Source of the DNA: Candidatus Zambryskiibacteriota bacterium
GTDB taxonomy: Bacteria; Patescibacteriota; Minisyncoccia; Phycocordibacterales; DATDWN01
Length of the DNA: 50,674 nt
Assembly (NCBI GenBank): GCA_023267045.1
Contig: JAHFOB010000005.1
Coordinates: 1 to 50,674, forward strand
Reading direction: 5' to 3'
Part shown: positions 12,130 to 44,660 of the stretch, piece by piece
How positions within the stretch are numbered: the first letter of the stretch is position 1
Layout of the letters: each line of letters begins with the position of its first letter
Translations under genes and position numbers: made by a program
Notes under the pieces: model-generated
What the model was told of the DNA's origin: nothing
Seen by the model: only the letters and a program-made list of their open reading frames with translations
Database searches by the model: none

Positions 12130-14472
12130 ATGGATAATATTAGAAATTTCAGCATCATTGCTCATATTGATCACGGTAAATCTACCTTGGCTGACAGAAT
12201 GCTTGAGATCACAGGCACAATAGAAGCCCGTAAAATGCAGGATCAAGTACTGGACTCAATGGAACTTGAGCGTGAGAGGGGTATTACCATAAAAATGCAA
12301 CCAGTTAGGATGGTTTACCATCCTCGCAGACTAGATTCAGACTTAACGCAGACTGACTCAGACACCGGGCAAAATGACTTTCTATATAAAGATTTAACTT
12401 ATAAAATACGAGGTGCTTGTTTTGCTGTCAGAAAATCATTAGGGTTAGGTCACAAAGAAATAGTGTATCAAAAAGCTTTGGAAATTGAGTTTAAAAATAT
12501 TGGCTTGAATTTTGAGAGTCAAAAAATTTTGAATGTTCTTTATCAAGATCAAAAAGTAGGAATATATACTCCCGATTTTATTATTGAAGATAAAATTATA
12601 ATTGAACTTAAATCTTTGCCTGAAATTGGCAAACCACAAGAAGAACAGTTGTGGAGCTATATTAAAGGATCTAAATATAAACTTGCACTTCTAATCAATT
12701 TTGGGAGTAAGGATGTAGAATTTAAGAGAATTGTTTATGATAGTCTGCGTCAGTCTGCGTCTAGTCTGCGACAGTCAGCGCAGATTCAGGATGAATACAT
12801 CCTGAATCTGATTGACACTCCTGGGCATATAGACTTTTCCTATGAAGTTTCTCGCGCACTCAAAGCCGTTGAGGGTTCTATTTTGCTCGTTGACTCAACA
12901 CAAGGTGTGCAAGCACAAACTCTAACAACTCTCGGAATGGCTCGCGAGTCAGGGCTGACGATTATTCCCGTGCTTTCGAAAATAGATTCGAGCTTGGCAC
13001 GTGTCTCTGAAGTTAAGCAGGAAGTCATCAAACTTTTAGGATGCAAAGAAGAAGATATCATGGAAACTTCTGGCAGAACTGGAAAAGGTGTTGAGGCACT
13101 TTTAAATGCAATTATTGAAAAAGTACCTCCGCCGACCAGCATAGACTTAACACAGACTCACGCAGAATTAAATTCAGCGAAGTCTGCGTCTAGTCTGCCT
13201 CTGTCTGCGAGTGCCTTCAGGGCACTAGTTTTTGATTTCAAATACTCAACTCATCGTGGAGTTATCGTTTTCGTGCGGGTAATGTCCGGAGAAGTAAAAA
13301 GAAACACACCTTTGGTTTTTAAAATTGCTAAAGAAACTTTCACCTCCATCGAAGTTGGAATTTTTTCACCGGGCGAAGTGGCGGTGGATAAACTTTCTGC
13401 AGGAGAAATTGGCTATATTGTAACGGGCATAAAACAACCCGGAATCGCTTCTGTTGGAGACACGGTAGCAACTATAGAAGACAAGCTCTCGCCACTTGCT
13501 GGGTATATGTCTCCCAGACCTGTTGTCTGGGCGTCGATTTATCCTGAAAGTCAGGATGATTTCACTGTTTTAAAGCAGGCACTTGGCAAACTAAAACTTT
13601 CTGACTCTTCATACACATTTGAGGAAGAATCTTCGGGCTCTTTGGGGAGGGGATTTCGCTGTGGTTTTCTCGGTATGCTCCACTTGGAAATTATTTCAGA
13701 GCGTTTACACAGAGAATTTAACTTGGAGTTGGTGGTGACCATGCCGACGATTACATATGAAGTGACCCCGAAGGAAAGTCGAGCACAACTTCCTACGGGG
13801 CAGGCTTATAAAAATAAATCATATATGGTGTATTCTCCTGCAAATTTTCCTGACGAAGGAACTTATTCTGAAATTCGTGAGCCGTGGGCAAATGTGGTTA
13901 TTATTACACCTGTAAAATATCTCTCAAATCTCATGCCACTTTTGTATGATCACGAAGCAGAAATAGGGGATTCAGAAAACTTTGGAGAAGACAGAACTAG
14001 ACTGACCATGAAAATGCCTCTTCGAGAGCTGATGCGAAACTTTTTTGATAAATTAAAAAGTGTCACCAGTGGTTTCGGTTCCATTTCATATGAAATAGAA
14101 GGAATGAGAAAAGCTGACGTTGTTCGGCTAGATATTTTAGTCGCCGACGAAATATTGCCAGCTTTTTCTCGAGTTGTTTCTCGTCGTGTGGTTGAGCAAG
14201 AAGCAGAGCAAGCTGTGGAAAAGCTTCACGCTATTTTGCCTCGCCAAATGTTTGTGATGAAAATCCAAGGCAAAGCTCTTGGCAGAATAATCTCAAGTCG
14301 AACAGTTTCAGCTTTTAGTAAAGATGTGACGCAACACATGTATGGTGGAGATATTACTCGCAAAATGAAGTTGCGCGAAAAGCAAAAGAAAGGAAAAAAG
14401 AAAATGAAAGAGAGAGGAATGGGGAAGGTTAATATTCCACAGGACGTCTTTCTAAAGATGATGAGAAGTTAA
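12130..14472 (+). CDS. lepA: Elongation factor 4 (LepA) with three in-frame insertions, including a GxxExxY nuclease domain
   Basis: IRNFSIIAHIDHGKSTLADR, ERERGITIK, LIDTPGHIDF, GFRCGFLGMLH, YGGDITRKMKL; 780 aa versus about 600 aa typical. Confidence 0.97.
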   Translation: MDNIRNFSIIAHIDHGKSTLADRMLEITGTIEARKMQDQVLDSMELERERGITIKMQPVRMVYHPRRLDSDLTQTDSDTGQNDFLYKDLTYKIRGACFAVRKSLGLGHKEIVYQKALEIEFKNIGLNFESQKILNVLYQDQKVGIYTPDFIIEDKIIIELKSLPEIGKPQEEQLWSYIKGSKYKLALLINFGSKDVEFKRIVYDSLRQSASSLRQSAQIQDEYILNLIDTPGHIDFSYEVSRALKAVEGSILLVDSTQGVQAQTLTTLGMARESGLTIIPVLSKIDSSLARVSEVKQEVIKLLGCKEEDIMETSGRTGKGVEALLNAIIEKVPPPTSIDLTQTHAELNSAKSASSLPLSASAFRALVFDFKYSTHRGVIVFVRVMSGEVKRNTPLVFKIAKETFTSIEVGIFSPGEVAVDKLSAGEIGYIVTGIKQPGIASVGDTVATIEDKLSPLAGYMSPRPVVWASIYPESQDDFTVLKQALGKLKLSDSSYTFEEESSGSLGRGFRCGFLGMLHLEIISERLHREFNLELVVTMPTITYEVTPKESRAQLPTGQAYKNKSYMVYSPANFPDEGTYSEIREPWANVVIITPVKYLSNLMPLLYDHEAEIGDSENFGEDRTRLTMKMPLRELMRNFFDKLKSVTSGFGSISYEIEGMRKADVVRLDILVADEILPAFSRVVSRRVVEQEAEQAVEKLHAILPRQMFVMKIQGKALGRIISSRTVSAFSKDVTQHMYGGDITRKMKLREKQKKGKKKMKERGMGKVNIPQDVFLKMMRS
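12325..12780 (+). mobile_element. In-frame cassette inside lepA: GxxExxY (PDDEXK_3-like) nuclease bounded by 39-bp inverted arrays of CGCAGACT units
   Basis: Motifs GHKEIVY and PDFIIEDKIIIELK. Left arm 12325-12363 has 4 x CAGAC; right arm 12742-12780 has 4 x AGTCWGCG. Length 456 bp = 152 codons. Confidence 0.85.
13140..13209. repeat. Nuclease-less palindromic copy of the same element, in frame in lepA
   Basis: catagact-taa-cacagact-ca-cgcagaatt / aaattcagcg-a-agtctgcg-tct-agtctgcc-tct-gtctgcg; encodes IDLTQTHAELNSAKSASSLPLSA. Confidence 0.8.
13764..13805. repeat. Short hairpin insertion in lepA (ACCCC...ACGGGGCARG family)
   Basis: ccccgaaggaa/ttcctacgggg stem followed by cagg; extra peptide TPKESRAQLPTGQA. 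Confidence 0.7.
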
Positions 14473-14753
14473 AACTTCCAAATTTAGCGATCTCCTCGTT
14501 TCGAAATTGAAAATTCTCGTCACCTTACGACGAGTAAGGCTCCTCGCATTTCCAATTCCTCAACATCGGATCTCATCTAAATTATGAAAGTTTTAAAAAT
14601 CTCGTCGAGCATACTTTTTCGCAAGACCTCGCAGACCTGAAGCTTGGTTCCGTCAAGGCACCCCGTTCTTGACGGATTCAGGTCGAGAACAAAGTGAGCG
14701 TAGCGCTGGCGGAGCGAGCGGTCTGGAGAAAAAGTGTGCGAGTAAGAGATTTT
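14471..14753. other. Two abutting long imperfect stem-loops between convergent lepA and ruvC (MITE-like or structured RNA)
   Basis: 14471-14594: aaaactt..aatttag/ctaaatt..aagtttt with apical ccttac/gtaagg. 14596-14753: aaaatctc/gagatttt, gcatacttttt/aaaaagtgtgc, gacctgaa/ttcaggtc, tccgtcaag/cttgacgga. Confidence 0.6.
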
Positions 14754-14754
14754 G

Positions 14755-15228
14755 TTAACGATTTATAGCAAAATGGGTCAGTCCAATAGCAATTGCATCA
14801 AACTCATCGTCACTATTAGTCTTTGAAGTGACCACGATTAGTTTTTTTACCATATCTATCATTTGTCTTTTCTCACTTCTGCCATATCCAGTTATGGCGA
14901 TTTTCACGTTGTTTGGTGTGTATTCAAAAACTTCTAGTCCCATTGAGCTTCCGGTATATAGAATTACTCCGCGAGCTTCTGCCACGAGCATTGCAGTTTT
15001 TTGATTTCCGCTAAAGAAAAGTTTCTCTGTTGCTAGTTGTTCTGGTTTATATTTTTTTATTACCTCTTTAATTCTATTTCCAATAAGTCGGAGACGCTCA
15101 TAGTGGGGAAGTTTACTAGACGTTTTAAAACATTCAGAAAAAATAAGCACTTCTTTTTTACCTTTTTCTTTTTCCAATATTGCTAATCCAAGTCGTTCGT
15201 ATCCCGGATCAATAGAAATAAGTTTCAT
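14755..15228 (-). CDS. ruvC: Holliday junction resolvase RuvC
   Basis: ISIDPGYERLG, EKLFF, AEARGV, YTPNNVKIAITGYG, DDEFDAIAI. Confidence 0.95.
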   Translation of the reverse strand: MKLISIDPGYERLGLAILEKEKGKKEVLIFSECFKTSSKLPHYERLRLIGNRIKEVIKKYKPEQLATEKLFFSGNQKTAMLVAEARGVILYTGSSMGLEVFEYTPNNVKIAITGYGRSEKRQMIDMVKKLIVVTSKTNSDDEFDAIAIGLTHFAINR

Positions 15229-15338
15229 GAATTTTATAATTTTTGAATTTTTAATTTTATAAATAAATCTAAATTTCTAATTTTTAAAAATTAATTCATT
15301 AAAACATTATTTAAAAATTACAAAATTAAAAATTGTTT
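15229..15338. repeat. AT-rich palindromic array of ~7-8-mer AATTTT/AAAATT units
   Basis: aattttat-aatttttg-aattttt... mirrored by ...aaaaatt-acaaaatt-aaaaatt. Confidence 0.55.
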
Positions 15339-15339
15339 A

Positions 15340-15867
15340 TTATTCTGCATTTGTATGAACATCCTGCACTTCATCTGATTCCTCTAATTCTTCTATTAGA
15401 TTACCAAGTTTTTCCCCATCTTCATCCGAAAGGGGAATTGTTGAAGTTGGTGTCCATTCTCCACCAGGACTGTGACTAAATGCCCAGCTCGCTGCTCCAA
15501 CACCCGCCATAGCAAAACCATGTTTTGCTAAAATAGTTTTTATTTCTTGATTCGCACGATTTTTACTGTCCGTTAGTGCTTCAATAACCATCGCACATCC
15601 GCCCGGCCCATATGCCTCGTAAATAATCATCTCCATATCACCAGACTCACTAGATTTTTTAATCGCTCTCTCAATATTATCGTTCGGTACATTCATTGAC
15701 TTGGCTTTTTCTATCGCCGATTTAAGTCCCAGGGAACTTACATTCCCCCCAGACTTTTTCGCTTCAACCGTGATCAGCTTTATCATTTTGCCAAAAATCT
15801 TTGATTTTTGTGAATCAGTTTTTTCTTTCTTGTGTTTTATTTTTGACCATTTATTATGTCCACTCAT
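15340..15867 (-). CDS. yebC: YebC/PmpR family protein, short form
   Basis: MSGHNKWSKIKHKK, YEAYGPGG, DEVQDVHTN; lies between ruvB and ruvC. Confidence 0.93.
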   Translation of the reverse strand: MSGHNKWSKIKHKKEKTDSQKSKIFGKMIKLITVEAKKSGGNVSSLGLKSAIEKAKSMNVPNDNIERAIKKSSESGDMEMIIYEAYGPGGCAMVIEALTDSKNRANQEIKTILAKHGFAMAGVGAASWAFSHSPGGEWTPTSTIPLSDEDGEKLGNLIEELEESDEVQDVHTNAE

Positions 15868-15875
15868 TGGAATGT

Positions 15876-15958
15876 GTGATGTATAAGGTATAACGTATTA
15901 TGTATAAATAAGAATTCAAGTCCATACATTATACTTTATACACTATACGTTATACACC
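15876..15958. repeat. Palindromic 7-mer array (GTATAAN units / TATACNN units)
   Basis: gtataag-gtataac-gtattat-gtataaa ... catacat-tatactt-tatacac-tatacgt-tatacac. Confidence 0.7.
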
Positions 15959-15968
15959 TAAAACTTTG

Positions 15969-16982
15969 TTACAACAAAGTCTTAGGTGTTAATCCCAAAT
16001 GCTCATAGCCTGAAGCAGTTACCGTTCTTCCGCGCGGAGTACGATCAAGAAATCCAAGTTGTAATAAATATGGTTCGTTGAACTCCTCAATTGTTGCTTG
16101 TTCCTCTGATATTGCTGCGGCCAAGGTATTTAATCCAACAGGTCCACCACCAAATTTATTTATTATCGTATGCAAAATATCTCTATCTGCAGGTGTTAGT
16201 CCTTGTTCGTCAATACCGAGAAGTTTTAAAGCTTCTGCCACAGAGTTTTTGGTCATCTCTGTTTTGTGAACCTGGGCATAGTCACGACAACGTTTCAAAA
16301 AGTAGTTTGCTGTACGCGGAGTAAAGCGAGATCTTTTTGAAATCTCCTGACCTGCACTTTTTTCTAGATCGATTCCTAAAATTTTAGCAGATCGAGTAAT
16401 TATTTTTTGTATTTCGTCGTTGGTATAAAACTCCAGTTTGAAAATTCCTCCAGAAAAGCGTGAGCGGAGAGGGGATGAAATCATGGCGATTCGTGTCGTT
16501 GCGCCGATCAGTGTAAATGGTGGAAGTTCGAGTTGTATTGTTCGAGCACTCGGTCCTTTTCCGATAATAATATCGAGTGAGCCAGATTCCATGGCGGGAT
16601 ATAAAACTTCCTCAATAGTTTTATTAAGGCGATGAATTTCATCAATAAAAAGTATGTCTCCTGGTGAGAGATTTGTCAGTATTGACGCTAAATCACCAAT
16701 TTTCTCTATTGCAGGACCAGAAGTCACCTTCATTTGGGCTTTTATTTCTTTGGCAATGAGATGAGCAAGGGTCGTTTTTCCAAGTCCAGGCGGACCGTAG
16801 AAAAGTATGTGCTCTGGTGGGTGATTTCGCTCTTTTGCCGCGGTAAGTAGGATCTGCAAGTTCTTTTTTACCATGTTTTGACCTATATAATCCTCCCATT
16901 TTGAAGGTCGCAAAGTGGTGTCCAAGAATAATTCTTCTTTTTCCGATACCCCATTGTCTTTGTTAGCCTGTTTTTTCTTCAT
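15969..16982 (-). CDS. ruvB: Holliday junction branch-migration helicase RuvB
   Basis: LRP..W..YIGQ, GPPGLGKTT, ILFIDEIHRL, GATTR, GGPVGL, RTPRGR. Confidence 0.97.
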   Translation of the reverse strand: MKKKQANKDNGVSEKEELFLDTTLRPSKWEDYIGQNMVKKNLQILLTAAKERNHPPEHILFYGPPGLGKTTLAHLIAKEIKAQMKVTSGPAIEKIGDLASILTNLSPGDILFIDEIHRLNKTIEEVLYPAMESGSLDIIIGKGPSARTIQLELPPFTLIGATTRIAMISSPLRSRFSGGIFKLEFYTNDEIQKIITRSAKILGIDLEKSAGQEISKRSRFTPRTANYFLKRCRDYAQVHKTEMTKNSVAEALKLLGIDEQGLTPADRDILHTIINKFGGGPVGLNTLAAAISEEQATIEEFNEPYLLQLGFLDRTPRGRTVTASGYEHLGLTPKTLL

Positions 16983-17011
16983 ACTATTTACATTATATCA
17001 AATCATTGCTT

Positions 17012-17112
17012 GACCCCAGTAGTAGAGCCGCGGTACTAGAGCAAAGCTCAGTACACGGTAAACAGCTCACTACGGGGTCTAACAGGTAGTGAGCTCTGCT
17101 CTACTACCTGTT
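17012..17112. repeat. Cluster of three related hairpins with a TAGAGC-N-GCTCA core: one nested in another, one inverted
   Basis: Outer gaccccagtagtagagc...gctcactacggggtc; inner ggtactagagcaaagctcagtac; third copy on the minus strand aacaggtagtagagcagagctcactacctgtt. Confidence 0.8.
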
Positions 17113-17139
17113 GACATGAAAAGTTTTTTATGCTAGACT
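17111..17139 (+). promoter_or_regulatory. Sigma70-type promoter with no downstream ORF
   Basis: TTGACA-17 nt-TAGACT, preceded by a TG extended -10 (tgc-tagact). Confidence 0.7.
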
Positions 17140-17145
17140 CCTTTT

Positions 17146-17390
17146 CTACATTACTCGATGGTTATTTGACTGCATTTGGCCGCTCCAAAATATAAATCTC
17201 TAAGCAACTAAGCATTTATGTTTAAGAGTCTTTCTACGAGGACATTCTGGATATTACCTTGTGTAATATTCTGGAGTTATCCTTTGTGAAATACTTAGCT
17301 TTTTGTATCTTTACTTTAAGTGTTGCTTAGAGATTTATGCTTTGGAACTTTTTTGAAATTTCGACTGACCTCTGCATTAAGTATAAGTAG
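17146..17390 (+). ncRNA. Candidate rod-like ncRNA (~245 nt), possibly 6S-like
   Basis: Follows a near-consensus promoter. Closing pairing ctacattact/agtataagtag, perfect 17-bp helix 17192-17208/17322-17338, apical gatattac/gtaatatt; no ORF. Confidence 0.5.
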
Positions 17391-17451
17391 CAAACTATCC
17401 TTGGCAAGTCTGTTTAACATTAGAGCTTGCAAGAAATCCCGTGTCCAGTTT

Positions 17452-19128
17452 CTATTGTCTCTCAACATCCACAACTCTGCGTAATTCTTCCAAAGTTGTT
17501 ATACCCTGAAGCACTTTTATTACCCCATCTTGATTTAAGTTTAGCAAATTTTGCTTACTTGCCACTTTTTCTATCTCTCTTTCGCTCGGGTTTTCAATAA
17601 CTATCTTTTCAATATCTGAATCCATTACAATAGCTTCGTGTATTCCAGTCCGACCTTTATAGCCGATGTTGTGGCACTTATCACAACCGACGGCTTGGAA
17701 AATATGTGAGCGATCTAGTCCTTCTAGATAGCTTTTATCTTTTATTGTATCCAAAATATCTAGGATAGTTTTTTTATCATCACCTGCAAGATCGATTTGT
17801 TTTTTGCATGCTGGACATAGTTTTCGGACGAGACGTTGAGCCATAACCATATTTATTGCTGACGACAAAACTTTTGGATTTGCTCCAAGGTCTATCAGTC
17901 GTGGAAATGTTCCAGCAGCGTTGTTAGTGTGAAGTGTAGAAAAAACTAAGTGTCCAGTTAGTGACGAGTTAATAGCTATTTCTGCTGTTTCTCTGTCTCG
18001 TATTTCACCGACCATGATTACGTCCGGGTCTTGACGCAGAGCACTTCGCAGACCTTCAGCAAACGTATAGTCTTTCTTTTCGTCAGTTTGAGTCTGGACA
18101 ATACCCGGTAAATGGTATTCTATTGGATCTTCGATAGTAATTATTTTTATTTCTGGTGTGTGAATTCTTTTTATAAAGGCATACAAGGTTGTGGTTTTTC
18201 CGGAACCAGTCGGTCCAGTGTTGAGCATCATACCGTTCGGTTTTTTTAGTTGTATATCAATCATCTCCATCAACCTTTTATTTATACCCAAATCTTCTAG
18301 TGGTGTTCCTATTGATTTTGGATTGAGGACTCGGAGAACGATCGACTCGCTATATGCTCCGGGGAGAAGGGAAGTTCGGATTTCTATTTCACTATCTTTT
18401 ATTTTTATACTAAAACGTCCATCTTGTGCACCACCAATATTGAGTTTTAAATTAGAAACAAGTTTCAAACGAGACAAAAGTAGTTTGTATGTATCTAAAT
18501 CAAATTCCAAAATGTCTGTCAGTATTCCATCTAGTCTGTATCGAAGTCGAACATAGCTTTCTTCTGGTTCAAGGTGAACATCGGAAGCGTCAGTTGCAAT
18601 TGCTCCAGCTAGAATTATTTCCATAATTCGAGAAATACGATAACTTTTTTTCATACTCAAAACTTCTTGTATCAGTTTCTGAACATCAGGTATAGTCTGA
18701 ACTTGTGACAAAAACTCTGTGATCTGATCGTTGGAAATATCCAAAGCCCCAGATTTTGTTTCAAAAGAATACGATAAGTCCTTGTATCTAATCCAAACTT
18801 TTTCAAGACTTGCGTGGGAAACCATGAAGAGTTCAACACTGTAGCCCTTTGCTTTTAATTTATTTAACGCCTCAACTGTTTTCGGATTTTCTGGAGACAA
18901 TGCACCAACACTCAAAACTTTATCAACTTCATTGAAAACAGCTACTTGCGCTTCGCGAGCTTCTGTTTCTGTAATAACACGAATAGAATCAATGTTTATT
19001 GGAACGGCAGTTAGATCTAGATAGGGGACACCATATTTAGATGATAGAGTTTGAGTCAGTTCTTCTTCCTCTTGTTTTCGTAAATCGTCTATCCGTTTAT
19101 TTTGTTTATCTTCGTCAAATACAACCAT
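17452..19128 (-). CDS. GspE/PilB-family type II secretion/type IV pilus assembly ATPase
   Basis: ASDVHLEP, QDGRF, TGPTGSGKTTTLY, TIEDPIEY, LRQDPDVIMVGEIRD, TGHLVFSTLHTN, tetracysteine Zn motif. Confidence 0.93.
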   Translation of the reverse strand: MVVFDEDKQNKRIDDLRKQEEEELTQTLSSKYGVPYLDLTAVPINIDSIRVITETEAREAQVAVFNEVDKVLSVGALSPENPKTVEALNKLKAKGYSVELFMVSHASLEKVWIRYKDLSYSFETKSGALDISNDQITEFLSQVQTIPDVQKLIQEVLSMKKSYRISRIMEIILAGAIATDASDVHLEPEESYVRLRYRLDGILTDILEFDLDTYKLLLSRLKLVSNLKLNIGGAQDGRFSIKIKDSEIEIRTSLLPGAYSESIVLRVLNPKSIGTPLEDLGINKRLMEMIDIQLKKPNGMMLNTGPTGSGKTTTLYAFIKRIHTPEIKIITIEDPIEYHLPGIVQTQTDEKKDYTFAEGLRSALRQDPDVIMVGEIRDRETAEIAINSSLTGHLVFSTLHTNNAAGTFPRLIDLGANPKVLSSAINMVMAQRLVRKLCPACKKQIDLAGDDKKTILDILDTIKDKSYLEGLDRSHIFQAVGCDKCHNIGYKGRTGIHEAIVMDSDIEKIVIENPSEREIEKVASKQNLLNLNQDGVIKVLQGITTLEELRRVVDVERQ

Positions 19129-19189
19129 GCATAAATAATAACATAATTTTCAGTTGAAAATCCTTAATTCTGGCTACTTTTTGAGTATA

Positions 19190-19218
19190 TTGACAAAAAG
19201 ACTAAAGTAGTGTAAGAT
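19190..19218 (+). promoter_or_regulatory. Sigma70-type promoter
   Basis: TTGACA-17 nt-TAAGAT; Shine-Dalgarno-like GAGGGGG before ATG 19240. Confidence 0.65.
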
Positions 19219-19239
19219 GGTAGGCAGAGGGGGTGTCCC

Positions 19240-20028: not shown

Positions 20029-20040
20029 AGTTCTTTGTTC

Positions 20041-20101
20041 CGCGGTAGCACACTATATAGCAGTGCTACCGCGAGGAGTCGCGAAATTCGCGGCTTTTTT
20101 T
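20041..20101 (+). terminator. Tandem hairpins / intrinsic terminator
   Basis: cgcggtagcac/gtgctaccgcg, then agtcgcgaa-attcgcggct and a T run. Confidence 0.7.
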
Positions 20102-20131
20102 GTAGACAAAATATGGTAGTATTTTTTCAAT

Positions 20132-20608
20132 ATGAGATCTGTAAAATATATAGTCGATAACTTAGATCAGTTTCAAAAAGTCGTCAGAGAAATTGCCTCA
20201 AGTACTATAGAAAGTAAGAGAGGGGCAACTGTTATTGGTCTATATGGAAATCTTGGGGCAGGTAAGACAACTTTTGTCCAAACCTTCGCAAAACATTTTG
20301 GTGTTGAAGAAACAGTTATTAGTCCAACTTTTGTTATTGAAAAAATATACCCCATTAGAACTAACGGTCGCAAGCGACCTACTTCTAACGGGGCAAGTGA
20401 ATTTACACATCTTATTCACATAGACGCCTATCGTTTAGAAAAATCAGAGGAGCTTTTGCATCTTGGCTGGAAAGAAATTATTTCTGATCCAAAAAATATT
20501 ATTCTCATCGAGTGGCCAGAGAGAGTCTCTGACATTATGCCAGAGCATATACAGATCAGATTAAAGGTTTTAGATGATGAAAATTCACGTGAAATAGAAG
20601 TGATATAA
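20132..20608 (+). CDS. tsaE: t6A biosynthesis ATPase TsaE with an in-frame hairpin insertion (20350-20397)
   Basis: GNLGAGKTTF, SPTF, HIDAYRL, IEWPE; extra peptide PIRTNGRKRPTSNGAS. Confidence 0.93.
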   Translation: MRSVKYIVDNLDQFQKVVREIASSTIESKRGATVIGLYGNLGAGKTTFVQTFAKHFGVEETVISPTFVIEKIYPIRTNGRKRPTSNGASEFTHLIHIDAYRLEKSEELLHLGWKEIISDPKNIILIEWPERVSDIMPEHIQIRLKVLDDENSREIEVI

Positions 20609-20615
20609 TTACCAC

Positions 20616-36476: not shown

Positions 36477-36479
36477 AAT

Positions 36480-38033: not shown

Positions 38034-39128
38034 CGAGAACGGTGTGGAAGATCCGAATTTCACGCCAGCTGAGAAACGACGAACGCGACAATGTCGATCA
38101 TTGCGACACGCCGCCTAATGCATTGTCGCGAGGTGCGATGTCACGGCGTCAGCTGCCCAGCAAGCCTACGTTCCGGGGAGCGTCCAGGAGATATCGATCG
38201 AATCCCTACGGTCGTCGAAACTTTAGATCGTCCTCAAAAAGAGACAGTTGCTTGCCATCCGCCCTCATGGTCGCCATGGTTCGGTCGGCTGTCTGGACGA
38301 ACAACAGTGCTAATGCCAGACGATCAATTGGAGGTTTTGAGACGGCGTGGCTAGTGACGTATCGACATAAGTCATTGTAGGGCTTATAGTTACAGTCAGT
38401 CGTTCCCATGAGTCCACCTCATGTGCACGAGCCTGGCCTATTGGCCAGGTGCCTCCGGGGTGCGAACCCGGAGGCCTTTTATATATCACAGAATTGTCGC
38501 TTCTGGGAAGAGCTTGCAACCTTGGGCAATTTTGTGCTTGACGGATTTTTGGTAAAACAGGACAATTGCAGGGTTCTAGGTTAGTCGTATTCAAGAGTCC
38601 ACCTCTTGAGTGTGACGAATTGGGCTCCTGGAGGTGCGAACTTCAGGAGCCCTTCCCTTTTGGGCACTATCATCCCGCATTCTTGACGTCTTCCCACACC
38701 GAATCCCGATCAACCGATCCGCTCTCATTTTTCAGTTCTTCTCGCTCCTTCGCAATCCGAATGACGATGCGCAGGTAGTCGTGAAGCCAACGATGGGCTT
38801 CATCGTTTGCCTCGCCAACCAGTTCCGGAAAGAAGTCTGGCAAGCCGGCGCGTCGTCGACGTGGTGCGTCCGTTGTCCACTCATCGGGCGATGAATCCAG
38901 GTGCCGTGCTACCGACCAATTGTTGTCTCGTTCAGATCTCACCGGGTCACAGTACCAAGCGCGGATCACCAGTCAAGGAGCCTGGCCCCTTCTCGCAATT
39001 CGAATCCCTCGGAGGGTCAGCGCCCATCACTTCGTTTCCTGCCCTGCCGCGAACCCGAAGACTCGGGCTCAGTTGAGCCACTTTCTCTGGTTATCCACAG
39101 CCACGACGGTAGATGTTTCCACTTGCGG
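37939..39128. mobile_element. GC-rich ~1.2-kb non-autonomous element or remnant between the recombinase and tRNA-Ser
   Basis: Abrupt GC rise at 37939 (one sampled 60-mer is 34/60 G+C); bounded by TGCGG at 37939 and 39124; no intact recombinase. Confidence 0.6.
38670..38969 (-). CDS. Possible small helical protein of the GC-rich element
   Basis: Protein-like segment DFFPELVGEANDEAHRWLHDYLRIVIRIAKERE; start uncertain. Confidence 0.35.
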   Translation of the reverse strand: MIRAWYCDPVRSERDNNWSVARHLDSSPDEWTTDAPRRRRAGLPDFFPELVGEANDEAHRWLHDYLRIVIRIAKEREELKNESGSVDRDSVWEDVKNAG

Positions 39129-39210
39129 AAGTGGTGAGATTCGAACTCACGGTACCTTGCGGCACTCTCGTTTTCAAGACGAGCGCGTTAGACCTCTCCG
39201 CCACACTTCC
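39126..39210 (-). tRNA. tRNA-Ser(UGA)
   Basis: ggaagtg/cacttcc-g acceptor stem, anticodon loop CTTGAAA, long variable arm gtgcc-gcaa-ggtac. Confidence 0.93.
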
Positions 39211-39227
39211 CTCTGAACTTTAGCATT

Positions 39228-39632
39228 CTATATCTTTTTTCCCTTTATTTCAAATTGATTTTTTATATCTTTGTGTAAATGATGTTCTTCATAATGACAG
39301 TTAGGACAAATAAGTTCTAGGTTATTTAAATCATTATTTAGTCGGTTTCTATCCTTATGGTGTACTTGCAGTATTTCAAGTTTATTGTAGCCGCATCGCT
39401 CACAGATTACACCCCTTTCTTTCATTAGTCTAACCTTCAAAGCTTGTTGAGATTTTACTTTATCTCTTGGACTACCAATTTTATATTTGATACCAGCTCT
39501 ATTTATATTTGCACAAGTTCTACTACAAGTCTTTTTATTTAGTCCTGACAAAATAAGTTTTCCACAAACAACACAGGGTATTTCTTTTTTCTGAGAAGTG
39601 CCATAACAATTTATGCTACAAAAATTTGACTT
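39228..39632 (-). pseudogene. HNH endonuclease with Cys motifs, apparently 5'-truncated
   Basis: CERCG..LQVHHKDRNRLNN..NL.LICPNCH. The frame continues upstream of the TTG (FCSINC...CVVCGK) and reaches a stop with no ATG. Confidence 0.6.
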
Positions 39633-39669
39633 AATGCAATAATGAGGTTTTTACTGTAAACTGGTCTTT

Positions 39670-40059
39670 ATGAAATATTTGGGAATTGATTATGGGACAA
39701 AAAAGGTTGGAATTGCTATATCGGACGATAAACAACAGTTTTCTTTTCCTCTTGTAGTTTTAGACAACACAAAGGAACTTATTTCGGAAATAGAAGAAAT
39801 TTGTAAAGAAAATAATATAGTAAAAATAATAGTTGGGGAGTCAAAAAACTTTGCCCAAAAAGAAAATGAGGTGATGAAAGAGATTTTGCCGTTTGTAGAA
39901 AAATTAAAAAAATTGGGTCTAAAAGTTGTCATGCACCCAGAATTCATGACATCCCAAGAAGCCGAGAGATTACAAGGAAAAAACTTGATGCACGATGCAT
40001 CCGCCGCCGCTCTGATATTAAAAAGCTATTTAGATACAGAAAAAAATCATGGAAAATAA
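39670..40059 (+). CDS. ruvX: YqgF/RuvX-family nuclease
   Basis: YLGIDYGTKKVGIAISD, EFMTS.EA, DASAAALIL.SYL. Confidence 0.9.
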   Translation: MKYLGIDYGTKKVGIAISDDKQQFSFPLVVLDNTKELISEIEEICKENNIVKIIVGESKNFAQKENEVMKEILPFVEKLKKLGLKVVMHPEFMTSQEAERLQGKNLMHDASAAALILKSYLDTEKNHGK

Positions 40060-40402
40060 ACCGACTATATCAATAGACGACTTTAAAAAACTAGAAATAA
40101 AAATAGGGGAGATTAAAAGTGCTGAAAAAATAGAAAATGCAGACAAGCTTTTGAAACTGTCGGTAGATTTTGGTGAAGAATCACCGCGTCAGATTGTCTC
40201 TGGTATTTCTACTTTTTTCCCCGATCCACAAACCCTTATTGGTAAAAAATGTGCTTTTGCCACAAATCTTGAACCAAGAACAATACGTGGATTTCTAAGT
40301 CAGGGGATGATACTTGCTGTGAGTGGAGAAAGTGACCAAAATTCATTCTTCTCTCTTCTTGAAACCAATAGTGATATCCTCCCAGGCAGTACAGTCAGAT
40401 AG
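40049..40402 (+). CDS. Stand-alone tRNA-binding OB-fold (MetG C-terminal/Trbp111-like)
   Basis: ISIDDF.KLEIKIG, ADKLLKL.VDFGE, NLEPR, SQGMILA. Confidence 0.88.
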   Translation: MENKPTISIDDFKKLEIKIGEIKSAEKIENADKLLKLSVDFGEESPRQIVSGISTFFPDPQTLIGKKCAFATNLEPRTIRGFLSQGMILAVSGESDQNSFFSLLETNSDILPGSTVR

Positions 40403-40446
40403 CCTTTTCCCTAGCTAGTATCTTCATTTTTGTTATAATTAACGGG

Positions 40447-41430
40447 ATGAAGTTCAATAAAATCTTCAACGCTTTTCCTCCACCCAAATTTCTTGACATT
40501 CCTTTTGCTGGCCTGTCGATTTCTGACTCTGCAGTTAGAGTTGTCCAGTTTAGCAAAAAAAGAGGCAAGCTAAGTATTCAAAAACACGGAGAAAAAACTC
40601 TATCTCCAGGAGTCGTTACATCTGGGCAAATAAATAACAAAGACGAACTCGTAAAAGTTATCCAAGATTTAAAAAAAGAACTCAACCTAGATTACGTCAG
40701 AGTTTCTTTACCAGAAGAAAAAGCATATCTTTTTACAGCCAAAATTCCTGTAGTAGGGAAAAAAGAAGTTCGAAGTGCAATTGAGTCAAAAATAGAAGAA
40801 AATGTACCGGTTCCACCAGGAGAACTGACTTTTGACTACAGACTTTTTTATCATAAAGAAAAAGAACACTTGGATGTGGTTGTTTCAAACTTGCCGATAA
40901 GTGTTGTCCAAACTTATGTTGATATAATACAAAATTCAAACTTGTCACTCCTTTCTTTGGAAATAGAATCTCAAGCAATAATTCGTTCTGTTGTTCATAG
41001 CAACAGTCTCGGTACAGTTTTAATTATTAATTTTGGTCCAGAAAAAGTTGGTTTATACGTTGCTAGTTTCGGAGTAGTTCGTTTTACTTCAACTGTTCAA
41101 ATAAAAGGCAATTTTACCAAAGATAATATGGAAAACAATCAAGGTCTTTTACTGCAGGAATTGAAAAAACTAAACATTTATTGGCATACACTAAAAGAAA
41201 ACATAGATAAACCAGACATGCAAATAACTCAAATAATTGTTTGTGGGGAAAACTTTGATGAATCTATTGTCACATATCTGTCATCACACAATTCCACTCC
41301 TGTTGTAATGGGCAATGTCTGGGTGAATGCTTTTGATGTCAATAAAGAAGTCCCAGATATTTCATTTAACGACTCTCTACGTTTTGCTGGGGCGGTTGGG
41401 CTGGCTCTTCCAAATGATATTTTAATTTAA
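40447..41430 (+). CDS. pilM: Type IV pilus assembly protein PilM-like
   Basis: GLSISDSAVR, SLPEEK, LEIESQA, FAGAVGLAL; first gene of an MNO-like operon. Confidence 0.75.
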   Translation: MKFNKIFNAFPPPKFLDIPFAGLSISDSAVRVVQFSKKRGKLSIQKHGEKTLSPGVVTSGQINNKDELVKVIQDLKKELNLDYVRVSLPEEKAYLFTAKIPVVGKKEVRSAIESKIEENVPVPPGELTFDYRLFYHKEKEHLDVVVSNLPISVVQTYVDIIQNSNLSLLSLEIESQAIIRSVVHSNSLGTVLIINFGPEKVGLYVASFGVVRFTSTVQIKGNFTKDNMENNQGLLLQELKKLNIYWHTLKENIDKPDMQITQIIVCGENFDESIVTYLSSHNSTPVVMGNVWVNAFDVNKEVPDISFNDSLRFAGAVGLALPNDILI

Positions 41431-41434
41431 AATC

Positions 41435-41974
41435 ATGTTCAATCTTCTCCCAGAAAATTTGAAAGATAAAATAAAATCAGAATACAGGGCTCGCAGATTT
41501 ATTATTATTCTTTTTTTCATAATATCACTGCAGGCTACTTTTTTGGTCTTTCTATTTCCGTCTTGGTTCATATCTTTTTCTCGTGAGAAAACTTCGATCT
41601 CGAGGTCTGATCAGGCTAATGCCTATTTTGCCATTCTGGATTCTACTAACGTTGTTTCTCTAGTCAAAAGCATAAACACCAGACTAAGAATCATCGACAA
41701 TGAATTATCATACGTTAAAGCTACACCGTATATAAATGTTGTTATTTCAGAAAAACCAAGCTCCTTAAAAATAAATAAACTTTCTTTTATTGCTACATCA
41801 GCAACATCAAGCACGCTTTTTATTGGAGGCAACTCTGTTTCTCGAGAATCACTAGTTTTATTTGTTAAAAGTTTGCAGGATTCAAAAATGTTTAATACGG
41901 TCGATTTGCCGATATCAAATCTGGCAAAAGATAAAAATATTGATTTTACAGTTAATTTAAGTTTTCAAATATAA
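41435..41974 (+). CDS. PilN-like protein
   Basis: MFNLLP start, single TM, G.S.SRESL..FV..L. Confidence 0.7.
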   Translation: MFNLLPENLKDKIKSEYRARRFIIILFFIISLQATFLVFLFPSWFISFSREKTSISRSDQANAYFAILDSTNVVSLVKSINTRLRIIDNELSYVKATPYINVVISEKPSSLKINKLSFIATSATSSTLFIGGNSVSRESLVLFVKSLQDSKMFNTVDLPISNLAKDKNIDFTVNLSFQI

Positions 41975-41978
41975 AGAC

Positions 41979-42542
41979 ATGAGAGGATTAAGATCTTTCA
42001 AAATAATACTGATCGTCATGGCAATATGTTCCTTCTCTATTTTTGTAGCAGACTATTTTCTTTTTCGTGACATTAAAATAAAAAATGAACACATTTCTAG
42101 TCTTGAAAACGATTTATCTTTGCAGGACAAAAGACAAGAATATTTGGTTTCAACCCAAAAACTAGTAAAGAGTGTTGAACAAGATATTGCCAACATAAAC
42201 AATTCGATTATTCCAAAACAAAATGATGTTAAGTTTATTGAAGGTATAGAAACTATGGCAAAAGATAATAATCTTAAAATCGAAATCAATTCTTTGTTTA
42301 CACAAAATGATGAAGTAGCTTCCACCACAGCAACAATTCTTTCTATGAAAGTAAAAACTACTGGTGGTTGGTCAGGTACCTATAAATTTCTTGCTGAAAT
42401 AGAATCTCTTCCTTTCAAAATAAAAATTGGAAATATGACTATGTATAGTAGTAATATAGGTGGTGATGGTGCTGTTGTCGCCAAAAAAACAGCTTCTGTT
42501 TGGGAAGGATCTTTTGATATTAAAGTTTTGGAATACAAATAA
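41979..42542 (+). CDS. PilO-like protein
   Basis: TM + coiled coil + G.W...KFL..IE.LP; follows pilMN. Confidence 0.65.
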   Translation: MRGLRSFKIILIVMAICSFSIFVADYFLFRDIKIKNEHISSLENDLSLQDKRQEYLVSTQKLVKSVEQDIANINNSIIPKQNDVKFIEGIETMAKDNNLKIEINSLFTQNDEVASTTATILSMKVKTTGGWSGTYKFLAEIESLPFKIKIGNMTMYSSNIGGDGAVVAKKTASVWEGSFDIKVLEYK

Positions 42543-42543
42543 T

Positions 42544-42879
42544 ATGTCAAAAATATTTCAAAAAATAAAATATTTTTACCACAAAATAAGACACAAAAAA
42601 GAGTCTTATGAAAAATCGGGGACAAAACCTTCTCGAGATTGGAAAATGATAATTATACTAGCTCAAACGGCAGTATTTATTTTGGCTGGGGTTGCTTACT
42701 ATTATTACATTCAGATTGAGCAAGGTAAATTATATTTGGTTAAAAAAGGTTTGGGTAAAAATAATATTCAAATAAACTCTATTTTGTTCAAAAAAACAGT
42801 TGATGATTTTAATTCTCGTATGAGCACGTTTTCAGATATAACATCTGGTAAGGGCATACCAAAAGATCCATCGATTTAA
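42544..42879 (+). CDS. Hypothetical single-TM protein (pil operon)
   Basis: ATG at 42544 immediately after the pilO-like stop; P.RDW motif plus TM. Confidence 0.6.
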   Translation: MSKIFQKIKYFYHKIRHKKESYEKSGTKPSRDWKMIIILAQTAVFILAGVAYYYYIQIEQGKLYLVKKGLGKNNIQINSILFKKTVDDFNSRMSTFSDITSGKGIPKDPSI

Positions 42880-42918
42880 TTTCACAGCTTGTCACTATTG
42901 TGGTAATGTGTTGTCAAT

Positions 42919-42990
42919 GCTCTCGTAGTTCAATGGACAGAACCACGGACTTCTAAGCCGTTGATGCAAGTTCGATTCTTGCCGAGAGCA
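42919..42990 (+). tRNA. tRNA-Arg(UCU)
   Basis: gctctcg/cgagagc acceptor stem, anticodon loop CTTCTAA. Confidence 0.9.
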
Positions 42991-43036
42991 CAAAATTCTT
43001 GATTATTAAGTAAATTTACGATAATGTTTACCCGTT

Positions 43037-43109
43037 GCGCGATTAGCTCAGTTGGTAGAGCAATTCATTTACACTGAATAGGTCGCAGGTTCGAGCCCTG
43101 CATCGCGCA
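43037..43109 (+). tRNA. tRNA-Val(UAC)
   Basis: Anticodon arm attca-TTTACAC-tgaat; T-arm gcaggTTCGAGCcctgc. Confidence 0.93.
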
Positions 43110-43140
43110 CACTTTTAAAAGTTCTATAAAATAATATATA

Positions 43141-43845
43141 ATGGACCGAATGAAAATACCGAATTGCGTGGGGATCATTATGGATGGAAATCGTCGCTGG
43201 GCAAAAAATAAAGGGATAGTGGCTCTTAAAGGGCACTCCGCAGGTGGAGAAACTCTAAAGAAAACCGTGACATGGGCTAGAGACCTAGGTGTAAAACACA
43301 TTATTTTCTTTACATTTTCAACAGAAAACTGGAAAAGATCAGAAGAAGAGGTCTCGTATCTCTTAAACCTAATCAGAGAATTTTTGGAGAAAGAATTCGA
43401 ATATTTTAATAAAGAAGGTGGAGTTTTACACTTTGCGGGGGATTTGTCGCGCTTTTCACCAGATTTACAGAAAGTGCTTATGGATGCAAAAGAAAAAACG
43501 TCAAAAAATACTGGAGTCCATGTTTATTTTGCTTTGAACTACGGTGGACGAGCCGAAATACTTTCTGCTGTTAAAAAAATTGTAGAAGAGAATACCCAAA
43601 AAAATATACAGCCAGAAGATGTGACAGAAGAATATTTTGCTAAACATTTACAAACTGAAAACATGCCTGACCCAGATATTATTATCCGTACCTCTGGCGA
43701 GCAGAGACTGTCTGGTTTTTTGCCGTGGCAAGGAGTGTACTCAGAACTTTTTTTTACAAAAACTCTCTGGCCAGATTTTTCAAAAGAAGAGTTCGAGAAG
43801 ATTTTAGAAGAATACTCCAGCCGTGATCGAAGGATTGGTAAGTAA
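43141..43845 (+). CDS. uppS: Undecaprenyl diphosphate synthase
   Basis: IIMDGNRRWA, FSTENWKR, NYGGRAEI, IRTSGEQRLSGFL.WQ. Confidence 0.96.
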   Translation: MDRMKIPNCVGIIMDGNRRWAKNKGIVALKGHSAGGETLKKTVTWARDLGVKHIIFFTFSTENWKRSEEEVSYLLNLIREFLEKEFEYFNKEGGVLHFAGDLSRFSPDLQKVLMDAKEKTSKNTGVHVYFALNYGGRAEILSAVKKIVEENTQKNIQPEDVTEEYFAKHLQTENMPDPDIIIRTSGEQRLSGFLPWQGVYSELFFTKTLWPDFSKEEFEKILEEYSSRDRRIGK

Positions 43846-43904
43846 ATAAAATTTTATAATTTATAATTTTTAAAAATTAAAAATTCAAAAATTAAAAATT
43901 ATTT

Positions 43905-44660
43905 ATGCAACCCGAAATACTATACGAAGACAAAGATGTATTGGCTATAAACAAGCCGTCTGGACTTGTTGTTCACCTCAGTAGTAGAGCAAAAGCTCAC
44001 TACGGGGCAAGCAGTGACGAAGAGCACACTTTGGTTGATTGGATTATGTCAAAATATCCAGAAATAAAAGAAGTCGGCGAGCCAGGAAAAACCCCAACAG
44101 GACAAATAATTTATCGTCCCGGCATTGTTCACAGACTAGACAGAGAAACTTCCGGAGTGATGTTGGTGGCAAAAAATCAAAAATCTTTTGAAAATTTGAA
44201 AGAGCAATTTCAGAAGCACGAAATAGAAAAAACCTATCATGCTTTTGTTAATGGAGAAATTAAAAATGAAGAGGGTGTGATAGATAGACCGATCGGTCGC
44301 AGTAGTAAAGATTTTCGTATGTGGTCAGCTCAACGTGGTGCTAGGGGAGAGATGCGAGAAGCTGTGACAAACTATAAGGTTATCTCTCGAAAGAAAATAA
44401 ATGCCCAAGGGTATTCCTTTATTGAAGTTCGTCCTAAAACTGGTAGAACACATCAGATACGTGTTCATTTCAAAGCCATTCATCATCCACTTGTTGCTGA
44501 CTCACTCTACGCTCCATCTACAGAAAATAGTCTTGGTTTCAAACGTCTAGCTTTGCATTCCTACATTGTTACTTTCAAAGATACAAAAGACAAAAGTCAT
44601 ACTGTTACAGCGCCATATCCGGAGGATTTTGAGAAAGCGATTAAAATTTTCAATTTTTAA
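43905..44660 (+). CDS. RluA/RluD-family pseudouridine synthase with an in-frame hairpin insertion (43976-44011)
   Basis: NKPSGLVVH, IVHRLDRETSG, TGRTHQIRVH; extra peptide LSSRAKAHYGAS. Confidence 0.92.
   Translation: MQPEILYEDKDVLAINKPSGLVVHLSSRAKAHYGASSDEEHTLVDWIMSKYPEIKEVGEPGKTPTGQIIYRPGIVHRLDRETSGVMLVAKNQKSFENLKEQFQKHEIEKTYHAFVNGEIKNEEGVIDRPIGRSSKDFRMWSAQRGARGEMREAVTNYKVISRKKINAQGYSFIEVRPKTGRTHQIRVHFKAIHHPLVADSLYAPSTENSLGFKRLALHSYIVTFKDTKDKSHTVTAPYPEDFEKAIKIFNF

What the first reader, a model, noticed from the sequence alone, without database searches (positions are those of the whole stretch)
13764..44011. Family of in-frame coding hairpins ending ACGGGGCARG in lepA, tsaE and the RluA-family gene
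Seen: three housekeeping genes each gain about 12-16 residues encoded by a hairpin with shared ends. lepA 13764-13805 is gaccccgaaggaa..ttcctacggggcagg, tsaE 20350-20397 is ccccattagaa..ggtcgcaagcgacc..ttctaacggggcaag, and the RluA-family gene 43976-44011 is cctcagtagtagagc-aaaa-gctcactacggggcaag. All three are in the same orientation and frame (xGA/GQ at the 3' end: TGQA, NGAS, YGAS). The interiors differ but still pair. Known analogue: Rickettsia palindromic elements. Inference: a structure-recognised REP-like element that creates new peptide loops in core proteins.
Basis: partly seen in the sequence, partly recalled or inferred. Interest (0 to 1): 0.75.

Follow-up and report, generated by a model that had tools for sequence, protein, structure and literature searches.

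The report
In-frame palindromic repeats in core genes
Three housekeeping genes of this ultra-small (CPR-type) bacterium each carry a copy of a tiny hairpin-forming repeat that is read through as an extra, probably floppy protein loop, the same kind of thing as the palindromic elements known from Rickettsia but in a family and a bacterial group where I found it in no paper.

Summary
The three hairpins are real and are insertions. Cutting out exactly 13766-13804 (39 nt), 20350-20397 (48 nt) and 43976-44011 (36 nt) restores the reading seen in 19 relatives' LepA, TsaE and RluA-type genes. None of the 19 carries the hairpin. One detail is wrong: lepA is read in a different frame from the other two.

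They belong to a genome-wide family of about 36-nt imperfect palindromes (consensus: CCCC, A, ten-base arm, three-base loop, complementary arm, GGGG, CAAG). This 750-kb genome has 36 model hits, 21 of them inside reading frames. Hosts include DnaK, GyrB, SecA, TopA, RecG, PcrA and two tRNA synthetases.

The family is patchy: 22 of 41 genomes of the genus and 32 of 151 of the order. Pairing is kept through compensatory changes. Copies sit in both orientations, but almost only in the three stop-free, hydrophilic frames.

Best reading: a REP/RPE-like non-autonomous mobile hairpin, filtered by selection. The mobilising enzyme is not identified. Y1 (RayT-like), GxxExxY and GIY-YIG genes all co-vary with it, and none of the Y1 or GxxExxY genes examined is regularly flanked by it (GIY-YIG adjacency was not searched).

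This scan had already reported the same family on other contigs of this genome (e1-4545047, e1-4545050).

The parts
13766..13804 (+). 39-nt palindromic unit in lepA (sense orientation, 13 codons, reads PKESRAQLPTGQA). It belongs to the GAAGGAAAG subtype, shared with G000 C1:8411-8443.
   Evidence: 33.2 bits; its removal restores GTGAC-T-TATAAAAAT, as in 19 relatives.
20350..20397 (+). 48-nt palindromic unit in tsaE (sense orientation, 16 codons). It has the family's ends, an unrelated outer stem and an inner GGTCGC/GCGACC hairpin. It is the weakest family member.
   Evidence: (27.5 bits, E 0.018).
43976..44011 (+). 36-nt near-consensus unit in the RluA-family pseudouridine synthase gene (sense orientation, 12 codons, LSSRAKAHYGAS). 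Its 4-nt loop shifts the frame between the two arms.
   Evidence: (51.1 bits).
17014..17081 (+). Intergenic composite copy: an outer unit with a second unit (17028-17062) in its loop. The same nested form occurs in-frame in a class I (Trp/Tyr-type) tRNA synthetase gene (C22) and in a Pif1-like helicase gene (C15).
17086..17108 (-). Core stem-loop of a further copy in inverted orientation, directly behind the composite copy.
   Evidence: (25.2 bits, model positions 5-27).
12130..14472 (+). Host gene lepA (EF4), 780 aa against 594-678 aa open frames of full-length copies in relatives.
20132..20608 (+). Host gene tsaE (158 aa).
43905..44660 (+). Host gene, RluA-family pseudouridine synthase (251 aa).
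6528..7163 (-). RayT-like Y1 (HUH) transposase gene. It is only a candidate for the mobilising enzyme and is flanked by a different palindrome, not by this family.
   Evidence: (46.7 bits to PF01797).

Best explanation
The three hairpins are copies of a non-autonomous, REP/RPE-like mobile palindromic element of about 36 nt. The element spreads as DNA within genomes, and probably between genomes, of this CPR order.

Insertion appears indifferent to gene, orientation and frame. Because the unit is a multiple of three bases, a copy that lands in a tolerant surface loop, in one of the three stop-free and hydrophilic frames, leaves the gene working and persists as an extra 12-16-residue loop. Copies in the other frames or in structured regions are lost.

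Shown: the family exists; the three window copies are clean insertions; pairing is kept by compensatory change; distribution is patchy; the frame filter holds.

Inferred: active transposition through a single-stranded hairpin intermediate by an enzyme supplied in trans. A Y1/HUH RayT-like protein is my first guess (about 35%). The GxxExxY PD-(D/E)XK nuclease is second.
For: Clean insertions. Deleting exactly the unit restores V-T|Y-K-N (lepA), K-I-Y|E-F-T-H (tsaE) and V-V-H|S-D-E-E (rluA). None of the 19 relatives in each alignment has the hairpin. No target-site duplication is visible at the three sites.

Family. Model R1 finds 36 hits at E<=1 in G000. Of these, 21 lie inside crude reading frames, 4 lie on frame edges and 11 are intergenic. 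Hosts named by Pfam for 14 of 15 include DnaK, GyrB (2 copies), SecA, TopA, RecG, PcrA/UvrD (2 copies), ArgRS, a Trp/Tyr-type synthetase, TypA, bL25, ComEC, Pif1-like helicase, and M23 and M50 peptidases.

Mobility-like distribution. The family is in 22 of 41 genomes of the genus, at 0-31 copies, and in 32 of 151 genomes and 31 of 132 genera of the order. Near-consensus copies (50 bits or more) occur in other families of the order.

Structure kept. In 48 distinct copies, pair 21/75 is GC 37 and CG 10; pair 22/74 is TA 29, CG 15 and GC 3; pair 24/73 is GC 39, CG 4 and AT 4. Overall 592 Watson-Crick cells stand against 32 others. On the 12 seed copies 92.9% of cells pair, against 32-40% when the partners are slid.

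Frame filter. The consensus has stops in 2 of 6 frames and a hydrophobic frame in 1. Of 35 copies in frames of 120 aa or more, 24 are sense and 11 antisense. That fits the 2:1 expected from the three usable frames (p=1.0) better than 1:1 (p=0.04).

Ends. The base before the unit is A in 37 of 47 copies, and the base after the 4-nt tail is C or G in 38 of 47. Other flank positions look like background.

Enzyme candidates. G000 has 4 PF01797 matches. Genomes with 4 or more copies have a Y1 gene in 11 of 12 cases, against 10 of 29 for the rest. In the order the figures are 27 of 32 against 62 of 119.

Loops. TsaE residues 71-90 have block pLDDT 75 and 53 in a model of mean 87.0. RluA residues 21-40 have 71 and 55 in a model of mean 90.9.
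Against: No movement was observed. The public runs are held as contigs only. They show the lepA copy in two samples (X1, X2) and the tsaE copy in X1, and no empty-site allele of the same strain.

No enzyme is tied to the family. Of 24 Y1-gene neighbourhoods searched with all filters off, only 2 hold a copy at E<=0.01. One of those two is a copy inside a neighbouring helicase gene. No copy flanks the 6 GxxExxY loci searched apart from the lepA copy itself. No pair of arms encloses a gene in G000 or at 8 orphan arms in the genus.

Co-occurrence does not discriminate. Y1 (rho 0.59), GIY-YIG (rho 0.49) and PF13366 (8 of 12 against 3 of 29 in the genus; 15 of 32 against 11 of 119 in the order) all track copy number. 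Related genomes are not independent. The genome with most copies (G036, 31 copies, 100% complete) has no PF13366 match.

The tsaE copy shares only its ends with the family, and it has no sibling in G000.

Covariation may reflect a few master-copy subfamilies rather than repeated compensation.
Confidence: 0.78

Rival explanations
1. The hairpins are the cargo-less partners of the in-frame GxxExxY (PD-(D/E)XK, PF13366) nuclease cassettes that live in the same genomes. The nuclease cuts or homes at hairpin-bearing sites and so spreads both kinds of element.
For: lepA itself carries such a cassette (PF13366 at aa 87-201). It is bracketed by 26-nt (88% complementary) and 20-nt (90%) inverted repeats, and a cargo-less hairpin of the same arms lies at 13137-13209. 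PF13366 gives the largest odds ratio in the order sample: 15 of 32 genomes with hairpins against 11 of 119 without, odds ratio 8.7, p 6e-6. In the genus it is 8 of 12 against 3 of 29.
Against: The cassette's arms are a different repeat and do not match model R1. No cassette with this family's arms was found. G036 has 31 copies and no PF13366 match. Co-occurrence of mobile elements in the same lineages is expected anyway.
Confidence: 0.15
2. The copies persist because the hairpin does something for the host as DNA or RNA, for example pausing ribosomes, stabilising mRNA or acting as a topoisomerase or gyrase site, rather than because they are selfish.
For: Pairing is kept over long times. The SecA-tail copy and the RecG copy sit at the same place in two species, with compensated differences. 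Passages of PMC3733652 argue that many REPs act as RNA elements or gyrase targets.
Against: Copies occur in both orientations and in unrelated genes. Wobble pairs show no strand bias (G.T 9 against A.C 6), so an RNA role is not indicated. All 19 relatives do without each of the three inserts.
Confidence: 0.1
3. The palindromes arise locally, by template switching at permissive loops, and are made alike by gene conversion rather than by transposition.
For: The same loops carry unrelated palindromes in relatives. Examples are an 18-nt perfect palindrome in RluA of G005 (a near-perfect copy in G008), a 72-nt insert in G006, a GC-rich palindrome in TsaE of G014 and G018, and 27 extra bases in LepA of G004.
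Against: Thirty-six hits in one genome, and near-identical copies in 31 genera with conserved unpaired bulges, tail and flank bases, are not expected from independent local events. Recurrent use of the same loops is explained as well by selection for tolerant sites.
Confidence: 0.05

Closest known systems
Intragenic GTAG- and CGTC-tagged REPs (Di Nocera, De Gregorio & Rocco 2013, PMC3733652; passages read)
   Same: Short palindromic stem-loops in many dispersed copies. Distribution is patchy between species and units pair in opposite orientation. Some copies lie inside known genes, often replication and repair genes, where they encode extra residues. CGTC REPs also lack a dedicated transposase.
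   Different: That paper finds them in Proteobacteria, Cyanobacteria, Chloroflexi and the PVC group, not in CPR. Its tag sits at one end of the repeat. Here GTAG lies inside the stem behind a CCCC/GGGG clamp, and no CGTC end exists. Here the short form is mostly intragenic (21 of 36 hits), whereas most REPs are intergenic.
Rickettsia palindromic elements (RPE; Ogata et al. 2000, recalled, not read here; mentioned in PMC3733652)
   Same: Selfish palindromic DNA inserted in-frame into housekeeping genes and kept as part of the protein, at tolerant sites.
   Different: By my recollection RPE-1 is about 100-150 bp, and RPEs are confined to Rickettsia and relatives. This unit is 36 nt and is found across a CPR order. 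PMC3733652 states that R. conorii RPEs end in CGTC, which this family does not.
REPIN/RAYT and REPtron systems (recalled: Nunvar 2010, Bertels & Rainey 2011, Ton-Hoang 2012; summarised in PMC3733652)
   Same: Hairpin repeats with conserved mismatches. Y1/HUH RayT-like genes are present in the genome (3 RayT-sized frames of 211-237 aa plus one IS200-like gene of 143 aa). Intergenic copies form inverted doublets.
   Different: The RayT-like genes are not flanked by this family. The one in the window is flanked by another palindrome.
In-frame GxxExxY nuclease cassettes with hairpin arms in CPR genes
   Same: They occur in the same genomes and even the same gene (lepA). They are read through in-frame, and cargo-less hairpins of the arms also occur in-frame.
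   Different: The arm repeat is different and carries a nuclease gene. This family has no cargo form in the 41 genomes examined.

Membership tests
REP (GTAG-tagged, RAYT-associated) | Short imperfect palindrome present in many dispersed copies | tested here: met
   36 hits in G000. In the 12 seed copies 92.9% of cells pair.
REP (GTAG-tagged, RAYT-associated) | GTAG tetranucleotide terminating the repeat at one end (PMC3733652) | tested here: not met
   GTAG (or GTAC) is present but internal. It is paired with CTAC and lies inside a CCCC/GGGG clamp. The ends are A-CCCC and GGGG-CAAG.
REP (GTAG-tagged, RAYT-associated) | A RAYT gene flanked by the repeats (REPtron) | tested here: not met
   2 of 24 Y1-gene neighbourhoods hold a copy at E<=0.01, and neither shows a flanking pair.
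REP (GTAG-tagged, RAYT-associated) | Mostly intergenic, downstream of genes, often as inverted dimers | tested here: inconclusive
   The short form is mostly intragenic (21 of 36). Intergenic copies do form inverted doublets with the 62-72-nt long form.
Rickettsia palindromic elements | In-frame insertion into protein-coding genes that stay open | tested here: met
   Translation of the inserts was not tested.
Rickettsia palindromic elements | CGTC end (PMC3733652) and sequence relatedness to RPE families | tested here: not met
   No CGTC end in the consensus. Sequence comparison with RPEs was not run.
MITE | Terminal inverted repeats with a target-site duplication, and an autonomous IS that shares the ends | tested here: not met
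   No duplication at the three empty-site comparisons. No arms enclosing a gene.
IS200/IS605-type hairpin elements moved by Y1 transposases | Insertion without duplication next to a short specific target word, through single-stranded hairpins | tested here: inconclusive
   There is no duplication, and only one conserved flank base on each side (A in 37 of 47; C or G in 38 of 47). Strand bias and cleavage are not testable with these tools.

The most novel reading that the evidence does not exclude
The 36-nt hairpins and the in-frame GxxExxY nuclease cassettes are two halves of one undescribed system in CPR bacteria. In it, a PD-(D/E)XK nuclease recognises hairpin DNA by shape and drives copy-in of codon-compatible palindromes. 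Element-level selection would then have tuned the repeat (length a multiple of three, three stop-free hydrophilic frames) to live inside essential genes of genomes that have almost no intergenic room.
Probability: 0.15. Interest if true: 0.8.

Novelty: new member of a known kind. Interest (0 to 1): 0.45.

Why it matters
The inserts show that even a 750-kb, 88%-coding genome tolerates selfish DNA by hosting it inside core proteins. One family has written extra loops into at least 18 genes here, among them DnaK, GyrB, SecA, TopA and three translation or RNA-modification factors.

For annotation and phylogenomics of CPR bacteria, these inserts are a source of spurious 'lineage-specific loops' and of alignment noise.

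The family also offers a small, well-defined substrate (36 nt, conserved bulges and ends) for finding the enzyme that moves REP-like hairpins when no flanking transposase gives it away.

Tried and rejected
- **Protein-level motif.** Rejected. The same DNA is read in three frames and in both orientations.
- **Assembly artefact.** Rejected. Exact contigs of two samples hold the lepA copy and one sample's contig holds the tsaE copy, and copies sit at the same codon in two species in SecA and RecG.
- **REPtron.** Y1-gene neighbourhoods searched with all filters off gave 2 of 24 with a copy and no flanking pair.
- **Cargo-bearing form.** All arm matches in G000 pair within 119 nt. Of 62 exact 5'-arm matches in the genus, 8 were not model hits. 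Seven of these have a 3' arm 18-52 nt away and one has none.
- **GIY-YIG lead from e1-4545050.** Small GIY-YIG genes are in nearly all 41 genomes. Their correlation with copy number (rho 0.49) is no better than that of Y1 (0.59). I saw one adjacency (G009 C28) by comparing the coordinates by eye; no systematic adjacency search was run.
- **Population evidence for excision.** Only contigs are served, and there is no joint at the unit's ends. One low-depth contig of run X3 replaces 20350-20414 by 32 other letters, most simply a related strain without the hairpin.
- **Expression.** No RNA holder is listed.
- **My own hairpin count in the codon-shuffle script.** It was too strict to be useful (observed 1, shuffled mean 0.02), so only the tail-word count is used.
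- **** timed out and was rerun.
- **Literature.** The terms 'extragenic palindromic' with 'candidate phyla radiation' gave one unrelated preprint (listing only). 'RAYT' with 'Patescibacteria' gave 27 papers; the 10 listed are gut, rumen, soil or insect microbiome studies (listing only). The wider searches listed nothing relevant among their top 15 and 25. 'GxxExxY', 'PDDEXK_3' and 'PF13366' gave 5 papers, none on in-frame cassettes by title.
Full report
**What is there**

The window is contig C13 of a 750-kb, 31-contig genome with 38% G+C. The three sequences stand as written. Their hosts are LepA/EF4, TsaE and a PseudoU_synth_2 (RluA-family) protein by Pfam.

- The shared 3' word ACGGGGCARG occurs three times in the window against 0.01 expected.
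- It occurs ten times in the genome, and nine of those close a CCCC...GGGG hairpin.
- In the coding sequences it occurs 8 times on either strand, against a mean of 0.89 and a maximum of 4 in 100 synonymous-codon shuffles. So the encoded peptides do not explain it.
- As single-stranded DNA the four loci fold with z-scores of -2.9 to -4.9.

The lepA copy starts at codon position 2, while the tsaE and rluA copies start at position 3. T-G-Q and N/Y-G-A-S are therefore two frames of one DNA word.

**They are insertions**

I took the orthologues from 30 related genomes and aligned 19 for each gene.

| Gene | Relatives with the hairpin | Relatives with the minimal loop |
|---|---|---|
| TsaE | 0 of 19 | 13 of 19 |
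| RluA-type | 0 of 19 | 14 of 19 |
| LepA | 0 of 19 | not counted |

At the DNA level, removing exactly 13766-13804 leaves GTGAC-T-TATAAAAAT, the sequence of the relatives' empty site. Removing 20350-20397 leaves K-I-Y-E-F-T-H, and removing 43976-44011 leaves V-V-H-S-D-E-E. The units are 39, 48 and 36 nt, and I see no target-site duplication.

**The family**

Twelve copies align to a 35-nt consensus printed: CCCC, a bulged A, a 10-nt arm with a second bulged A, a 3-nt loop, the complementary arm, GGGG and a CAAG tail. A covariance model built from them finds 36 hits in G000 at E<=1. Of these, 21 lie inside my crude reading frames, 4 lie on frame edges and 11 are intergenic.

Pfam names 14 of 15 further hosts:

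- ComEC, ArgRS, TypA/BipA and PcrA/UvrD (two copies)
- GyrB (two copies), DnaK, RecG and a Trp/Tyr-type synthetase
- an M23 peptidase, ribosomal protein bL25, TopA and SecA
- a Pif1-like helicase and an M50 peptidase

The rluA copy is a typical member (51.1 bits). The lepA copy (33.2 bits) shares its arm with C1:8411-8443. The tsaE copy (27.5 bits) shares only the ends.

A 62-72-nt long form with the same foot, and a nested form as at 17014-17081, also exist. Intergenic short copies usually sit head-to-head with a long copy.

**Structure is conserved, on neither strand in particular**

In 48 distinct copies from 20 or so genomes, three stem pairs switch between Watson-Crick types: GC 37 and CG 10; TA 29, CG 15 and GC 3; GC 39, CG 4 and AT 4. 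There are 592 Watson-Crick cells, 9 G.T, 6 A.C and 17 others. The variants form subfamilies, so the number of independent compensations is small. The lack of wobble asymmetry gives no sign of an RNA-level role.

**Frame filter**

The 36-nt consensus has stops in one sense and one antisense frame, and a hydrophobic antisense frame (CPVVSFALLLG). The remaining three frames are hydrophilic: TPVVEQSSLRGK, PSSRAKLTTGQ and LPRSELCSTTG.

Of 35 copies in frames of 120 aa or more (20 in G000, 15 in other genomes), 24 are sense and 11 antisense. That fits the 2:1 expected from the usable frames. In my reading, ten of the eleven antisense copies use the LPRSEL-type frame. The rluA copy escapes a stop-bearing frame through a 4-nt loop.

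This pattern is what random insertion followed by selection would leave.

**Distribution**

At E<=0.001, 22 of 41 genomes of the genus have copies, ranging from 0 to 31. At E<=1e-4, 32 of 151 genomes and 31 of 132 genera of the order have copies, including near-consensus copies in other families.

The SecA-tail copy (G000, G036) and the RecG copy (G000, G035) sit at the same protein position in two species, so some insertions are old. The base before the unit is A in 37 of 47 copies, and the base after the tail is C or G in 38 of 47.

**Protein consequences**

With 20-sequence alignments the TsaE model has mean pLDDT 87.0. The insert lies in coil between strands 70-74 and 93-98, with block values 75 and 53. 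The RluA model has mean 90.9, with 71 and 55 over residues 21-40. In LepA the insert falls where HMMER opens gaps against solved EF4 (5imq_B), in a stretch that is variable among relatives.

**Who moves it**

G000 has four Y1_Tnp matches: one 143-aa IS200-like gene and three RayT-sized genes of 211-237 aa, one of them in the window. Flanking was tested and failed.

- Only 2 of 24 Y1 neighbourhoods hold a copy. The window's RayT-like gene is flanked by a different palindrome.
- No arms enclose a gene.
- No copy flanks the GxxExxY genes.

Co-occurrence is positive for everything tried, so I cannot name the enzyme.

| Candidate | Genus sample | Order sample |
|---|---|---|
| Y1 (PF01797) | 11 of 12 genomes with 4 or more copies, against 10 of 29 | 27 of 32 against 62 of 119 |
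| PF13366 (GxxExxY) | 8 of 12 against 3 of 29 | 15 of 32 against 11 of 119 |
| GIY-YIG | rho 0.49 with copy number | not tested |

Related genomes are not independent, and G036 has 31 copies without PF13366.

**Comparison with what is known**

Passages of Di Nocera et al. 2013 (PMC3733652) describe intragenic REPs and RPEs, a terminal GTAG or CGTC tag, REPtrons, and CGTC REPs that lack a transposase, in phyla other than CPR. This family works like those elements but fails the tag and REPtron criteria.

My searches found no paper on REP-like or in-frame palindromic elements in CPR (listings only). This scan had already described the same family on other contigs of this genome (e1-4545047 in PcrA; e1-4545050 on the size classes). 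What this window adds is three more hosts, exact insertion boundaries, the frame-filter analysis, the order-wide distribution and the negative enzyme tests.

**Verdict**

The element is a new family of a known kind, and the mechanism of movement is open.

Noticed in passing
window 12324-12783 and 13137-13209: lepA also carries an in-frame GxxExxY/PD-(D/E)XK_3 domain (PF13366, aa 87-201). It is bracketed by 26-nt (88% complementary) and 20-nt (90%) inverted repeats. A cargo-less hairpin of the same arms adds about 25 residues further on. None of the 19 relatives' LepA has the domain. Earlier scan notes describe such cassettes in other genomes.
   Followed up: partly
L129 (G014 C21:10300-13600), frame 753-3299 on the minus strand: RecG of a congener carries an in-frame copy of the same nuclease domain between helicase motifs II and III (motif labels are my reading of the translation). 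It is 47% identical to the lepA copy, with similar flanking peptides. G000 also has a free-standing 126-aa copy upstream of what look, by my reading of the ORF translations, like nusG and rplK neighbours (no family search run).
   Followed up: partly
L029, L022, L026 (RluA); L011, L007 (TsaE); L042 (LepA): The same loops carry unrelated palindromes in relatives. RluA of G005 has an 18-nt perfect palindrome encoding LPAQAG, and G008 has a near-perfect copy encoding LPAQTG. RluA of G006 has a 72-nt hairpin insert. TsaE of G014 and G018 has a GC-rich palindrome with compensated differences. LepA of G004 has 27 extra hairpin-forming bases.
   Followed up: partly
window 6380-6527 and 7164-7460: The RayT-like gene 6528-7163 is flanked on both sides by inverted copies of another palindrome, ATGTCAAAG...CTTTGACAT. 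This looks like a REPtron of a second repeat family. Its genome-wide copy number was not counted.
   Followed up: no
L128 (G000 C7:37500-45500): The 23S rRNA gene is split. Rfam model positions 2049-2651 and 2655-2912 lie about 2 kb apart, and two group I introns are called. One hairpin core of this family lies in the 2-kb insertion (C7:41690-41712) and one in the 23S-5S spacer (C7:42869-42903). A second, weaker 5S match follows.
   Followed up: partly
G000 C15:41900-42560 and the ends of C16, C17, C27, C31: The IS200-like element (143-aa TnpA, 109 bits to PF01797) has CCCCG...CGGGG end hairpins that recur at several contig ends. It is therefore multi-copy and breaks the assembly.
   Followed up: no
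window 20349-20415: In run X3 a low-depth contig (2.1) replaces this stretch of tsaE by 32 other letters. This is most simply a related strain whose tsaE lacks the hairpin.
   Followed up: no
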